This document shows positions 46,832-52,667 of a DNA stretch of 64,000 nt, piece by piece (within the stretch, counting starts at the first letter, position 1; the number at the start of each line of letters is the position of its first letter). Under the pieces are notes generated by a model. That model saw only the letters and a program-made list of their open reading frames with translations, was not told where the DNA came from and did no database searches. A program made the translations under genes and the position numbers. Source of the stretch: Anaeromyxobacter sp. (GTDB lineage Bacteria; Myxococcota; Myxococcia; Myxococcales; Anaeromyxobacteraceae); the NCBI GenBank assembly GCA_049840735.1, contig JASGJN010000020.1, positions 512,001-576,000 on the forward strand, in the 5' to 3' direction.

Positions 46832-47768
46832 TACCCGCCACCGGCGCGCCGGCGTGATCCGGCCAGCGCGCCAGGAAGGTCTGTCCCTCCTCCAGCACGA
46901 AGGCCTTGAAGGCCGCGGCCGCCGGCGTGAGCGCCTTGCCCGCCCGGTGGACCACGTTCCAGGCGCGCATCACCGGCAGCCCCTCGACCGGCAGGATGGC
47001 GAGCTGCTGCGTCGCCAGCTCCAGCCCGATGGCGTGGAGCGAGATGAAGGCCACGCCCATGCCCGCCATGACCGCCTGCTTGATGGTCTCGTTGGAGGAG
47101 ATCTCCGTCATCCCCGCCGGCCGCACCCCCGCGGCGCGCAGGAGCCGCTCCATGGCCGCCCGGGTGCCCGAGCCGCGCTCGCGCACCAGGAAGGTCTCCG
47201 CGGCCAGCTCACGGAGCGGCGCGCGGCGGCGCCGGGCCAGCGGGTGGTCGGGGTGGGCCACCATCACCAGCGGGTGATCGGCGAAGGGCGTGGCCTCCGT
47301 CTCCACGTCGCGCGGCGCGGTGCCCATCGAGCGTCAGGTCCACCTCGTTGCGCGCCAGCAGCTCCACCACCGCCGCGCGGTTGTGGACCAGCAGCTTGAG
47401 CGCCACCCGGGGTGCCGGTGGCCGAAGCGCGCCAGGAGCTTGGGCGCGAAGTACTTGGCGGTCGAGACCACCGCGATGGTGAGCCGCCCGGAGCGCACCC
47501 CCTGCAGCGCCGCCATGGCGTCCTCCGCGTCGCGCAGCGCCTGCAGCACCCGGTCCACGTGGCGGAGCAGCTCCTCGCCGGCCGGCGTGAGCGCGAGCCG
47601 GCGGCCGGTGCGCTCGAACAGCGGCAGCCCCGCCAGCCCCTCCAGCGCCTTCAGCTGCATCGAAACCGCCGGCTGCGTGAGGTGCAGCTCCTGCGAGGCC
47701 CGGGAGAAGGAGAGGTGGCGGGCGGCGGCGGCGAAGATCTGCAGCTGGCGGAGCGTGGCGTCGCGCAT
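46832..47768 (-). CDS. cbbR: LysR-type Calvin-cycle regulator CbbR; indels near 47410 and 47330, 3' end approximate
   Basis: TLRQLQIF...[52 protein letters not shown]; divergent from cbbL. Confidence 0.88.
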
Positions 47769-47782
47769 GCGGAGCGTACGTA

Positions 47783-47827
47783 TAAGCCGGGCTTAAGCCG
47801 CGGCGCATCACATCTGATTGGCGCTTA
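47783..47827. promoter_or_regulatory. Putative CbbR boxes (TNA-N7-TNA): TAA-GCCGGGC-TTA at 47783-47795 and TGA-TTGGCGC-TTA at 47815-47827
   Basis: LysR T-N11-A motifs in the cbbR-cbbL intergenic gap. Confidence 0.65.
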
Positions 47828-47882
47828 TCGAGCGCCGTCCCTACTCCTAATCCCACACCGGCACACGGAGGCAGGCGGCGGC

Positions 47883-49380
47883 ATGAAGACCATCGAATCG
47901 GCGGACTCGGCGAAGAGAGGGACGCGGACGGGGGCGGAGCGGTACCGCGCGGGGGTCATCCCGTACAAGACCATGGGCTACTGGGAGCCCGACTACGTCC
48001 CGAAGGAGACGGACGTCATCGCCGTCTTCCGGGTCACCCCGCAGGAAGGCGTGGACCCGGAGGAGGCGGCCGCCGCCGTGGCCGGCGAGTCCTCCACCGC
48101 CACCTGGACCGTGGTCTGGACCGACCGGCTCACCGCCTGCGAGCGGTACCGGGCCAAGGCCTACAGGGTGGACCTGGTCCCCGGCACCGGCCCCGGGACC
48201 GACCGCGAGGCCCAGCACTTCGCCTACATCGCCTACGACCTGGCGCTCTTCGAGCCCGGCTCCATCGCCAACCTCTCCGCCTCAATCATCGGGAACGTCT
48301 TCGGGTTCAAGGCCGTGAAGGCGCTGCGCCTCGAGGACATGCGCCTCCCGGTGGCCTACGTGAAGACGTTCCAGGGCCCGCCCACCGGCATCGTGGTGGA
48401 GCGCGAGCGGCTGGACAAGTTCGGCCGCCCGCTGCTCGGCGCCACCGTGAAGCCCAAGCTCGGGCTCTCCGGGAAGAACTACGGCCGCGTGGTTTACGAG
48501 GCACTCCGTGGAGGGCTCGACTTCGTCAAGGACGACGAGAACATCAACTCCCAGCCGTTCATGCACTGGCGCGACCGGTTCCTCTTCGCCACCGAGGGGG
48601 TCAAGAAGTGCCGAGGCCGGGACCGGCGAGGTCAAGGGGCACTACCTGAACGTCACCGCCGCCACCATGGAGGAGATGTACGAGCGGGCCGACTTCGCCC
48701 ATGAGCTTGGTTCACCCATCGTGATGATCGACCTGGTGATCGGCTACACCGCCATCCAGAGCATGGCGCGCTGGGCCCGCCGGAACGACATGATGCTGCA
48801 CCTGCACCGCCGCCGGCCACTCCACCTACACGCGGCAGAAGTCCCACGGCGTGAGCTTCCGGGTCATCTCGAAGTGGATGCGGCTGGCCGGCGTGGACCA
48901 CATCCACGCCGGGACCATCGTGGGCAAGCTGGAGGGCGACCCGGCCGCGGTCTCCGGCTTCTACGACGTGCTGCGCGAGCCGGCGGTGGCCCGCAATCCG
49001 TCGCGCGGGATCTTCTTTGACCAGGACTGGGCCAATCTCCGCGGGGTGATGCCGGTGGCCTCCGGCGGCATCCACGCCGGCCAGATGCACCAGCTGCTGG
49101 CCTACCTGGGCGAGGACGTGGTGCTGCAGTTCGGCGGCGGCACCATCGGCCACCCCATGGGCATCGCCGCCGGCGCCACCGCCAACCGCGTGGCGCTGGA
49201 GGCCATGGTCCTGGCCCGCAACGAGGGGCGCGACCTGTGGAACGAGGGGCCGGAGATCCTCGCCAGGCGGCGCGCAGCTGCCCGCCGCTGCGCGCGGCGC
49301 TGGAGGTCTGGAAGGACGTCACCTTCGACTACGCCTCCACCGACACCGTCGACGTCATCCCCACCCCCACCCTCGCCTGA
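47883..49380 (+). CDS. cbbL: RuBisCO large subunit, form I red-type (IC/ID); indels near 48609, 48811, 49260
   Basis: [35 protein letters not shown], catalytic [57 protein letters not shown]-terminal tail [16 protein letters not shown]. Confidence 0.96.
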
Positions 49381-50681: not shown

Positions 50682-50686
50682 GACCC

Positions 50687-51745
50687 ATGAGCCCAACCGC
50701 CCCCGGCGCACCCACCCTCACCCGCTTCATCCTCGAGGCGCACCGGCGCGCCCCCGGCGCCAGCGGGGTCTTCAGCGCCCTGCTCACCGACGTGGCCACC
50801 GCCATCAAGGACATCGCCCGCACCGTCTCCCGCGGCGCGCTGGACCGGCCGGCGGGCGGCCGCGGCGCGGCCCTCGACGCCGCCGCCCACGCGCTGCTGG
50901 TCCGCCACTGCGAGTGGGGCGGCCACCTGGGCGGGATGGTCTCGGAGGCGCTGGAGGCGCCCTACGCCATCCCCTCCGCCTATCCCTGCGGCCGCTACCT
51001 GCTGCTCTTCAATCCGCTCGACGGCTCGGCCAGCGCGGACGTGGACGCCGCGGTGGGCACGGTCTTCTCGGTCCTGCGCCGCGAGGCGGGCGCCGGCCCG
51101 GCCGCGGCCGAGGAGTTCCTGCAGCCGGGCCACCGCCAGGTGTGCGCCGGCTACGCCATCTACGGCCCCTCCACCGTGCTGGTGCTCACGCTGGGCGAGG
51201 GCGTGCACGGCTTCACGCTCGACCGCGAGCTGGGCGAGTTCGTGCTCACCCACCCGGACCTGCGCATCCCCGAGCCGGCCCGCGAGGTGACCGTCAACGC
51301 CTCCCACGAGCGGTTCTGGGAGGCGCCGGTGCGGCGCTACGTCGAGGAGTGCCGGGCCGGGCACGCCGGACCGCGCGGCGCCGACGTGGATCTCCGCGGC
51401 GTCTCCTCGCTGGTGGCCGACGTGCACCGGCTGCTGGTCCGCGGCGGCGTCGCGCTCCACCCGCGCGACACCCGCGAGCCGGCCCGCCCCGGCCGGCTGC
51501 GGCTGCTCTGCGAGGCCGCCCCGCTGGCCCTGATCGTCGAGCAGGCCGGCGGCGCGGCCTCGACCGGGCGGGCCCGGCTGCTGGACGTGACCCCGGGCGC
51601 GCTGCACGAGCGCGTCCCGGTGTTCCTGGGCTCCAGGGCCGAGGTGGAGCGGCTGGCCCGCTACCACGACGAGCACGACCGCGGCGTCGACCGCCCCTTC
51701 CGCTCCCCGCTCTTCGGCACCCGCTCGCTCTTCATCGAGCCATGA
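50687..51745 (+). CDS. cbbF: Class 1 fructose-1,6-/sedoheptulose-1,7-bisphosphatase homologue with degenerate motifs
   Basis: NPLDGS, AGYAIYGP, GFTLDRELGEFVLTHP, VADVHR, GRLRLLCEAAP; position within the cbb operon. Confidence 0.85.
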   Translation: MSPTAPGAPTLTRFILEAHRRAPGASGVFSALLTDVATAIKDIARTVSRGALDRPAGGRGAALDAAAHALLVRHCEWGGHLGGMVSEALEAPYAIPSAYPCGRYLLLFNPLDGSASADVDAAVGTVFSVLRREAGAGPAAAEEFLQPGHRQVCAGYAIYGPSTVLVLTLGEGVHGFTLDRELGEFVLTHPDLRIPEPAREVTVNASHERFWEAPVRRYVEECRAGHAGPRGADVDLRGVSSLVADVHRLLVRGGVALHPRDTREPARPGRLRLLCEAAPLALIVEQAGGAASTGRARLLDVTPGALHERVPVFLGSRAEVERLARYHDEHDRGVDRPFRSPLFGTRSLFIEP

Positions 51746-51791
51746 GAGTCGCACCCGCGGCGCGCCCGGCGCGCGCCAGGAGGAGGCCACC

Positions 51792-52667
51792 ATGTCGCAG
51801 CGCCACCCCGTCATCGCCGTGACCGGCTCCTCCGGCGCCGGCACCACCTCCGTCACCCGCACCTTCCAGCAGGTCTTCGGTCGGGAGGGGATCAAGGCGC
51901 AGGTGGTGGAGGGCGACGCCTTCCACCGCTACGACCGGGCCGAGATGCAGCGCCGCATGGCCGAGGCGGCCAGCCGCGGCGACCGCCACTTCAGCCACTT
52001 CGGCCCCGAGTCCAACCTGTTCGTGGAGCTGGAGGAGCTCTTCCGCGGCTTCGGCCAGACCGGGCGCGGCCAGGTGCGGCGCTACCTGCACGACCACGCC
52101 GAGGCGGCCCCCTACCACCAGGACCCCGGCACCTTCACGCCCTGGGAGGACATCCCCCCCGGCGTGGACCTGCTCTACTACGAGGGGCTGCACGGGGGCG
52201 TGGTGACCGGCGGCGTGGACGTCGCCCGCCACGTGGATCTGCTGGTGGGGGTGGTGCCCATCATCAACCTGGAGTGGATCCAGAAGCTGCACCGCGACCG
52301 CGCCACGCGCGGCTACAGCACCGAGGCGGTGGTGGACACCATCCTGCGGCGCATGCCGGACTACGTGAACCACGTCGTCCCGCAGTTCGCCCGCACCCAC
52401 ATCAACTTCCAGCGGGTGCCCACCGTCGACACCTCGAACCCCTTCATCGCCCAGGACATCCCCACCGCCGACGAGAGCTTCCTGGTGGTGCGCTTCGCCG
52501 ATCCCAAGGGGATCGACTTCCCCTGGCTCCTCACCATGCTTCACGATTCGTTCATGTCGCGGCGGAACACCATCGTGGTGCCGGGCGGGAAGATGCCGCT
52601 CGCGATGCAGCTCATCATGACGCCCATGATCCTCCAGCTGCTCGATCGCCGCCGCCGGGCGCTGTGA
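51792..52667 (+). CDS. cbbP: Phosphoribulokinase (proteobacterial octameric type)
   Basis: HPVIAVTGSSGAGTTSV, EGDAFHRYDR, YEGLHG, NLEWIQKLHRD, FQRVPTVDTSNPF. Confidence 0.97.
   Translation: MSQRHPVIAVTGSSGAGTTSVTRTFQQVFGREGIKAQVVEGDAFHRYDRAEMQRRMAEAASRGDRHFSHFGPESNLFVELEELFRGFGQTGRGQVRRYLHDHAEAAPYHQDPGTFTPWEDIPPGVDLLYYEGLHGGVVTGGVDVARHVDLLVGVVPIINLEWIQKLHRDRATRGYSTEAVVDTILRRMPDYVNHVVPQFARTHINFQRVPTVDTSNPFIAQDIPTADESFLVVRFADPKGIDFPWLLTMLHDSFMSRRNTIVVPGGKMPLAMQLIMTPMILQLLDRRRRAL

What the first reader, a model, noticed from the sequence alone, without database searches (positions are those of the whole stretch)
46832..52667. Red-type Calvin-cycle operon (cbbR-cbbLSX-fbp-prk) in an apparently myxobacterial, polysaccharide-degrading genome
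Seen: form I RuBisCO with intact catalytic motifs (KPKLG, KDDE, HAGT..GKLEG, SGG, GGG), a red-type small subunit, CbbX, PRK, FBPase, a divergent CbbR and two TNA-N7-TNA boxes. Known: RuBisCO plus PRK are the two enzymes specific to the CBB cycle, and this gene order is typical of Proteobacteria. Inference: the flanks look Anaeromyxobacter-like, a lineage normally regarded as heterotrophic, so this may be horizontally acquired CO2 fixation for mixotrophy or as an electron sink during sugar catabolism. The operon lacks tkt, gap, pgk and fba, so the host's housekeeping copies would be needed.
Basis: partly seen in the sequence, partly recalled or inferred. Interest (0 to 1): 0.9.

Follow-up and report, generated by a model that had tools for sequence, protein, structure and literature searches.

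The report
Calvin-cycle operon inherited within Anaeromyxobacter
An uncultured Anaeromyxobacter, a group known as organic-carbon feeders, carries the CO2-fixing genes of the Calvin cycle as part of an old gene set shared by about one in six genomes of its family, which suggests that some of these soil and sediment bacteria can fix CO2 with hydrogen rather than light.

Summary
The block is real: cbbR, cbbL-S-X, fbp and prk of red-type form IC, between native Anaeromyxobacter genes. It is neither a chimera nor a recent import. Form I RuBisCO occurs in 16 of 92 family genomes; their concatenated CbbL/S/X/PRK form one clade (100/98); codon and tetranucleotide use match the host. One relative keeps only a deletion scar. 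The rest of the cycle is elsewhere in the genome, with uptake and NAD-linked hydrogenases, oxidases and nitrate reductase; no reaction centre, Sox or CO dehydrogenase was found. Best reading: hydrogen-fed mixotrophy or facultative autotrophy, untested. Caveats: cbbR, cbbL and cbbS carry six single-base frameshifts, probably assembly errors (secA is hit likewise), but source reads were unavailable; the operon's FBPase looks degenerate. Calvin-cycle genes in Myxococcota are published, and a 2026 preprint names Anaeromyxobacteraceae in one sentence. Interest moderate, not 0.9.

The parts
46831..47768 (-). cbbR, LysR regulator; two compensating frameshifts (about 47327, 47405) and probably one near the 3' end
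   Evidence: (NF045990 CbbR best or second-best family); 3' end inferred from a TAG in a neighbouring frame
47783..47795 (.). CbbR box 1 (TNA-N7-TNA, inverted repeat)
   Evidence: T/A positions invariant in 15 of 15
47815..47827 (.). CbbR box 2 (TNA-N7-TNA)
47883..49380 (+). cbbL, form IC RuBisCO large subunit; three single-base frameshifts (about 48605, 48809, 49264), no in-frame stop, catalytic motifs kept
49391..49779 (+). cbbS, red-type small subunit; one frameshift just after the start codon (about 49394)
49776..50681 (+). cbbX, AAA+ RuBisCO activase, open frame; pore-loop aromatic is F (Y or W in family relatives)
   Evidence: (TIGR02880 443.7 bits, cut-off 459.25)
50687..51745 (+). class 1 fructose-bisphosphatase, open frame but degenerate (D to N in the DPLDGS motif, NxQGE loop missing)
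51792..52667 (+). prk, phosphoribulokinase of the proteobacterial class, open frame
   Evidence: NF011997 499 bits, cut-off 362
52719..52735 (+). possible terminator behind prk (weak: 2 found in the region, 0.9 expected by chance)
45028..46681 (-). left neighbour, not part of the operon: ABC-F ATPase, core gene of the genus, four frameshifts
52943..55630 (+). right neighbour, not part of the operon: alpha-amylase with fn3/CBM20, paralogues on contig C2

Best explanation
A CbbR-controlled Calvin-cycle cassette that entered the Anaeromyxobacteraceae once, long ago, as a form IC operon, and has since been inherited, moved within the family, relocated and often lost. In this host CbbR binds two boxes and switches on RuBisCO, its activase CbbX and PRK (gene identity and boxes shown; binding inferred). 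Housekeeping Pgk, Gap, Tpi, Fba, Tkt, Rpe and RpiB regenerate the acceptor, with GlpX or transaldolase replacing the degenerate operon FBPase (genes shown; flux inferred). ATP most likely comes from H2 oxidised by the Hyb-type uptake hydrogenase with O2 or nitrate, NADH from the HoxEFUYH hydrogenase (genes shown; coupling inferred). The organism is then a polysaccharide-using heterotroph that can fix CO2 on H2 when organic carbon is short. The frameshifts are taken as consensus errors. My odds by step: native operon 0.97, errors rather than real breaks 0.8, one old acquisition 0.75, H2 as the main donor 0.55.
For: Distribution: form I RuBisCO in 16 of 92 family genomes in 3 of 11 genera, 15 of these with PRK; phylum draw 7 of 66 in the family against 4 of 334 elsewhere, one of which is not form I. 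Phylogeny: 14 family rows plus 2 rows of another family of the order form one clade among 37 rows, 100/98; PRK 21 plus 2 among 107 rows, 0.981; the window is sister to G018/G015/G010 (100/100), close to the RpoB+PrfC tree. Host adaptation: GC3 0.94-0.99, tetranucleotide distance at the 47th percentile of 339 windows. Loss scar in G005. Constraint: 1 change in 237 conserved CbbL columns, at a frameshift junction. Error patches: 26 of 1469 bins hold 7 or more frameshift calls where under 0.4 is expected; the single secA copy has 11 calls; the ABC-F neighbour has four. Pathway. Energy. G009 has the operon back to back with an uptake hydrogenase; G423 has hypF nearby.
Against: No reads of the source were found, so the breaks are unverified; six in 5.5 kb exceed the homology-based background of 0.125 per kb (P about 8e-5 if uniform) and the stretch is among the densest in the genome. 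CbbL alone gives only 76/94 for the family clade. Outside rows were chosen by likeness to the window's PRK or a relative's CbbL, not sampled evenly. Hydrogenase-family matches occur in 37 of 37 genus genomes, so they do not single out the RuBisCO carriers; the Hox-type link (8 of 16 against 14 of 76, naive p 0.02) rests on related genomes. G003/G022/G031 group in the cbb tree but not in the weakly resolved host tree. The FBPase is degenerate. No growth, expression or labelling data exist.
Confidence: 0.52

Rival explanations
1. The operon is intact but serves heterotrophic growth: it disposes of surplus NADH or recaptures respired CO2 during growth on starch and glucans, with no growth on CO2 alone.
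For: Pullulanase, amylase, GH16 glucanases and phosphoketolase lie in the window. The operon lacks its own tkt/gap/pgk/fba and has a degenerate fbp. Such use of the cycle in photoheterotrophs and in Cupriavidus on sugars is recalled, not from a call.
Against: The carbohydrate neighbourhood is not shared by relatives. The host has oxidases, nitrate reductase and a bidirectional hydrogenase as cheaper sinks. No reaction centre to pay the ATP cost in 0 of 37 genus genomes. G009 links the operon to an uptake hydrogenase.
Confidence: 0.26
2. The frameshifts are real and this copy has just been inactivated, one more step in the family's repeated loss of the operon.
For: Local indel density far above the genome mean; degenerate fbp; deletion scar in the close relative G005; five family genomes with cbbR-prk but no RuBisCO match; 3 of 11 dense patches examined hold IS66 remains, so some patches may be true decay.
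Against: No in-frame stops and no substitution at conserved CbbL sites outside a junction; both CbbR boxes kept; the patch covers an unrelated core ABC-F gene and ends before cbbX; secA, rpoB, tpi, gap and tkt are also split in this assembly.
Confidence: 0.18
3. The block is a chimeric join or a recent transfer from a proteobacterial autotroph.
For: Gene order matches Paraburkholderia; the pullulanase 2 kb to the left has a 98.7% identical 1.9-kb copy on contig C4, a possible misjoin point; junction reads were not available.
Against: All six proteins are closest to family genomes; one family clade; host-like composition; both neighbours are native; 924.7-kb contig in a genome at 1.57% contamination.
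Confidence: 0.04

Closest known systems
Form IC cbb operons of Cupriavidus necator H16 (pHG1) and Paraburkholderia largidicola
   Same: Red-type CbbL/CbbS with CbbX, class 1 FBPase and the same PRK class; P. largidicola has the same L-S-X-fbp-prk order; CbbL pieces 56-77% and PRK 69% identical to C. necator.
   Different: No tkt/gap/pgk/fba/rpe in the operon; FBPase degenerate; the proteins sit in a separate Anaeromyxobacteraceae clade; no physiology.
Calvin-cycle genes of phototrophic Myxococcota MAGs (Li et al. 2023, PMC10576062; PMC11821767)
   Same: Form I RuBisCO plus PRK in uncultured Myxococcota, attributed to transfer from Proteobacteria (passages seen).
   Different: Those are other families, tied to photosynthesis gene clusters and split over three RuBisCO subclades; here 0 of 37 genus genomes match the reaction-centre family and the family's copies form one clade.
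[quoted passage not shown]
   Same: Names this family among 7 of 90 MAGs with the pathway and suggests autotrophic or mixotrophic growth (section 18 read).
   Different: One sentence by KEGG module, 4 of 90 with type I RuBisCO not assigned to families in the text; no operon, subtype, tree, prevalence or donor in that section. Its figure and supplements were not visible to me and may hold more.
Anaeromyxobacter dehalogenans 2CP-C (PMC2330069)
   Same: Same lineage; uses H2 as electron donor and has two NiFe hydrogenases (passages).
   Different: No mention of Calvin cycle, autotrophy or carbon fixation in the main text (0 hits); the four single-contig genomes of the genus have no RuBisCO or PRK match.

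Membership tests
Red-type form IC RuBisCO | Active-site motifs of a carboxylating RuBisCO | tested here: met
   9 of 9 motifs present in the read-through (motif list recalled); 1 change in 237 conserved columns
Red-type form IC RuBisCO | Small subunit with the red-type C-terminal hairpin | tested here: met
   aligns to 1BXN and 5NV3 small chains over residues 1-125; green-type chains stop near 102
Red-type form IC RuBisCO | Adjacent CbbX activase | tested here: met
   TIGR02880 E 2.5e-133, 443.7 bits, just under the 459.25 cut-off; Walker motifs present
Red-type form IC RuBisCO | Branches with IC references, apart from IA and the actinobacterial (IE-type) rows | tested here: met
   inside the 100/99 branch with Cupriavidus, Afipia and Nitrobacter; subtype labels of references are recalled
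Red-type form IC RuBisCO | Uninterrupted cbbL and cbbS frames | tested here: inconclusive
   four frameshifts in the assembly; source reads not found
Red-type form IC RuBisCO | Carboxylase activity | not testable with these tools
   needs expression and assay
Calvin-Benson-Bassham cycle | RuBisCO plus PRK | tested here: met
   PRK open and above cut-off
Calvin-Benson-Bassham cycle | Reduction and regeneration enzymes (Pgk, Gap, Tpi, Fba, Tkt, Rpe, Rpi) | tested here: met
   all found elsewhere in the genome; gap, tkt and tpi are themselves split in two frames
Calvin-Benson-Bassham cycle | FBPase/SBPase activity or a transaldolase bypass | tested here: inconclusive
   operon FBPase degenerate; GlpX (45%, two frames) and transaldolase present; substrate range unknown
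CbbR-regulated cbb operon | Divergent cbbR and conserved TNA-N7-TNA boxes | tested here: met
Phototrophic Myxococcota with Calvin cycle | Photosynthetic reaction centre | tested here: not met
   PF00124 in 0 of 37 genus genomes; host genome 94% complete
Hydrogen-oxidising facultative autotroph | Uptake and NAD-linked hydrogenases with maturation genes and a terminal reductase | tested here: met
   Hyb-type operon with hyp genes (C11), HoxEFUYH (C16), aa3- and cbb3-type oxidases, NarG
Hydrogen-oxidising facultative autotroph | Growth on H2 and CO2 | not testable with these tools
   no culture or labelling data

The most novel reading that the evidence does not exclude
Anaeromyxobacteraceae hold their own old lineage of form IC RuBisCO and include true hydrogen-oxidising autotrophs, the first myxobacteria to grow on CO2 without light, overlooked because the completely sequenced strains belong to branches that lost the operon; cbbL reads from soils and sediments assigned to Proteobacteria would then partly come from them.
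Probability: 0.33. Interest if true: 0.7.

Novelty: new member of a known kind. Interest (0 to 1): 0.45.

Why it matters
Anaeromyxobacter is abundant in paddy root zones and treated as an iron- and nitrate-reducing heterotroph (PMC10734482, passages); all cultured Myxococcota are heterotrophs according to PMC10576062. If about a sixth of the family can fix CO2 on H2, it becomes a candidate dark primary producer at oxic-anoxic interfaces, and the clade defined here gives a direct handle: specific primers, transcript assignment, 13CO2 probing and an H2/CO2 enrichment recipe. The enzymes and operon type are well known, so the gain is ecological and evolutionary, not a new mechanism.

Tried and rejected
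Reads: the run search listed 7 runs with at most 0.06 of the words and no RNA holder listed; 4 were laid and gave only short, divergent pieces, so nothing on indels, junctions, habitat or expression. Other donors: aerobic CO dehydrogenase subunits no hit; anaerobic CODH/HCP family none; SoxY none in the host, and in 1 of 16 RuBisCO carriers; PQQ alcohol dehydrogenase only weak hits under the cut-off; no clear formate dehydrogenase or arsenite oxidase among 6 molybdopterin matches, two of which stay unassigned. Rhodopsin, Sqr, Cyc2 and MtoA were not tested; 20 ORFs have four or more haem motifs, so Fe(II) oxidation is open. A first frameshift caller confused gene overlaps with frameshifts and was replaced; it still gives 0.084 calls per kb on a complete genome. 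The G299 row was mis-extracted; corrected it proved not to be form I and was left out. The FastTree picture of the family clade as sister to all other IC was not upheld; its place within IC is unresolved and no donor can be named. No sigma-70 promoter match. Paper searches found no study devoted to this operon in the family; the library lacks most subscription journals. Passages of PMC12400630, PMC13347035, PMC8141241, PMC9561532, PMC13055281, PMC8549172 and 10.1101/2023.09.04.556225 did not tie the Calvin cycle to Anaeromyxobacter; PMC8141241 reports cycle activity in unspecified Deltaproteobacteria. No structure or complex was predicted, as the families were clear from sequence.
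Full report
Observation. The six genes are at the stated place and in the stated order. CbbL keeps all active-site motifs; both subunits match red-type structures best; CbbX and PRK match their curated families. The two TNA-N7-TNA boxes are not unusual as a pattern (13 in the window, 19.1 expected) but their eight T/A positions are invariant in 15 of 15 aligned spacers whose mean column identity is 37%, a footprint of selection.

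Host. The window lies inside a 924.7-kb contig of a 6.67-Mb genome, 94.35% complete, 1.57% contaminated. PrfC in the window is 85% identical to named Anaeromyxobacter isolates, 81-87% to full-length same-genus copies and at most 57% to other families. The gene next to cbbR is a core ABC-F gene, 82-85% identical in DNA to four genus genomes and 79% to one of another family. The amylase behind prk has 77-80% paralogues on another contig. A foreign chimera is not tenable.

Distribution. PF00016 matched 18 of 92 family genomes; 16 are form I (15 whole, this one in pieces) and two are weak matches, one of them best fitting a RuBisCO-like enolase. PRK matched 22 of 92; 15 genomes have both, and G421's contig ends before prk. 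In an even draw from the phylum, 7 of 66 family genomes matched against 4 of 334 others, one of the four not form I. The four single-contig genomes of the genus have neither gene. Operon variants: R-L-S-X-P (G018, G015, G010), R-L-S-X-F-P (window, G020 and others), with fba or tkt appended in some. Many of these genomes are incomplete, so the counts are lower bounds.

History. Every window protein is closest to family genomes. Concatenated CbbL, CbbS, CbbX and PRK (37 of 57 available rows, 20 near-redundant outside rows dropped) put 14 family rows and 2 rows of one other family of the order in a single clade, 100/98. PRK alone does the same for 21 plus 2 of 107 rows (0.981). CbbL alone gives 76/94; with 120 further homologues a 61-row clade (0.985) held all family rows and none of the named proteobacterial ones. 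The window is sister to G018/G015/G010, roughly as in the RpoB+PrfC tree (0.937 for a wider group); other groupings disagree with that weak tree, so transfers within the family are likely. Codon use (GC3 0.94-0.99) and tetranucleotides (47th percentile) are host-like. G005, near G010, keeps only pieces of cbbX and prk between the same flanks, the trace of a loss. The position beside starch enzymes is not shared by relatives. Inference: one old acquisition, then inheritance, relocation and frequent loss; the donor cannot be named.

Frameshifts. Six single-base indels fall in cbbR, cbbL and cbbS and four in the ABC-F neighbour, all between 45.4 and 49.4 kb; cbbX, fbp and prk are open. Against an error reading: the homology-based background is 14 in 112 kb (96 of 153 query ORFs aligned), making six in 5.5 kb unlikely if errors were uniform (P about 8e-5). 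For it: errors are not uniform; 26 of 1469 bins of 4.5 kb hold seven or more calls where under 0.4 is expected; of 11 dense patches examined, one covers the only secA copy, with 11 calls, while three hold IS66 remains; rpoB, tpi, gap and tkt are split too. CbbL has no stop and one change in 237 conserved columns, at a junction, within the 0-2 seen in 14 of 15 intact relatives. I put assembly error at 0.8; source reads were not found.

Closing the cycle. Rpe, Tkt, Gap, Pgk, class II Fba, two RpiB, Tpi, transaldolase and GlpX are present. The operon FBPase has six changes at 70 conserved columns (median 1 among 99 rows), including the first D of DPLDGS, and lacks the NxQGE loop; its three closest relatives have no fbp in the operon. 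That these residues are catalytic is recalled. GlpX or a transaldolase route probably does the job (inference).

Energy. The host has a Hyb-type uptake hydrogenase operon with hyp genes, HoxEFUYH, aa3- and cbb3-type oxidases, NarG and a NorB-type protein. Not found: reaction centre (0 of 37 genus genomes), SoxY, either CO dehydrogenase, a methanol dehydrogenase above cut-off. G009 carries the operon back to back with an uptake hydrogenase 67-76% identical to Afipia's. Hox-type HoxH (66% identity or more to the query) is in 8 of 16 RuBisCO carriers and 14 of 76 others, a weak and non-independent link. H2 is a known donor for A. dehalogenans (PMC2330069, passages). H2-fed mixotrophy or facultative autotrophy is the most economical reading (0.52 overall); a redox sink on sugars (0.26) and fresh inactivation (0.18) remain.

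Prior knowledge. PMC10576062 (passages) and PMC11821767 (passages) report form I RuBisCO and PRK in phototrophic Myxococcota of other families. bioRxiv 10.64898/2026.07.10.737566 (passages and section 18) lists Anaeromyxobacteraceae among MAGs with a complete or near-complete cycle; its supplements were not visible. Public annotations already label PRK and form I CbbL in Anaeromyxobacteraceae MAGs. Nine searches found no account of the family-wide clade, the loss scar or a lithotrophic donor. The scan's index returned nothing for this lineage by words and eight unrelated cbb notes by sequence.

Verdict. A real, ordinary operon type in an unexpected but already flagged host group: new member of a known kind, interest 0.45. 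The value lies in the family-wide, non-phototrophic, apparently ancient trait, which makes dark CO2 fixation by Anaeromyxobacter directly testable.

Noticed in passing
L338 (G330) 8684-14846; L337 (G406) 5992-12099; L170 (G024) 3772-13797; L112 (G016) 2-7838: In four family genomes prk (or tkt) is followed by a two-gene pair resembling ATP-citrate lyase (ATP-grasp plus citrate-binding, 430 aa; CoA-ligase alpha-like, about 900 aa; 83-94% identical among them). Three of the four have cbbR-prk with no RuBisCO match anywhere in the genome; G016 has a divergent CbbL and no cbbX. Not present in the host. A CbbR-PRK-citrate-lyase operon without RuBisCO is unexplained and may deserve its own look.
   Followed up: partly
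L169 (G001), L170 (G024), L171 (G036), L337 (G406), L338 (G330): Five family genomes (70-98% complete) keep cbbR and prk, two with rpe-fbp-tkt, but have no RuBisCO match; their PRKs sit in one subclade with G016, G027 and the two outside-family rows.
   Followed up: partly
L172 (G005) 9419-10172: Deletion scar: only the 3' part of cbbX and pieces of prk remain between flanks shared with G010 and G018.
   Followed up: yes
L167 (G009) 58-12749: cbb operon back to back with an uptake hydrogenase operon and a sensor-type hydrogenase.
   Followed up: partly
window 43063-45006 and G000:C4:104970-106913: The catalytic half of the pullulanase has a 98.5% identical 1.9-kb copy on another contig; the frameshift-rich stretch begins 400 bases beyond it.
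   Followed up: partly
window 41296-44943 and 52943-55630; G000:C2:69695-94206: Expanded family of secreted starch enzymes sharing CBM26, fn3 and CBM20 modules, with several paralogues on C2, C7 and C22.
   Followed up: no
window 17612-20052: Phosphoketolase split by one frameshift; it would compete with the Calvin cycle for pentose phosphate.
   Followed up: no
G000:C13:629001-631397: Single secA copy with 11 frameshift calls, a marker of poor consensus patches in this assembly.
   Followed up: yes
L111 (G059), L268 (G328): Two genomes of another family of the order carry the same cbb clade, sister to the family rows in the concatenated tree but nested among them for PRK and CbbL alone.
   Followed up: partly
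L270 (G299) 8827-14225: A RuBisCO only 31% identical to form IC CbbL, next to fbp-prk-tkt, in another family of the order; probably form II, not classified.
   Followed up: no
window 57558-58845: Pair of short ORFs, one RdgC-like, syntenic with G021 next to its ABC-F orthologue.
   Followed up: no
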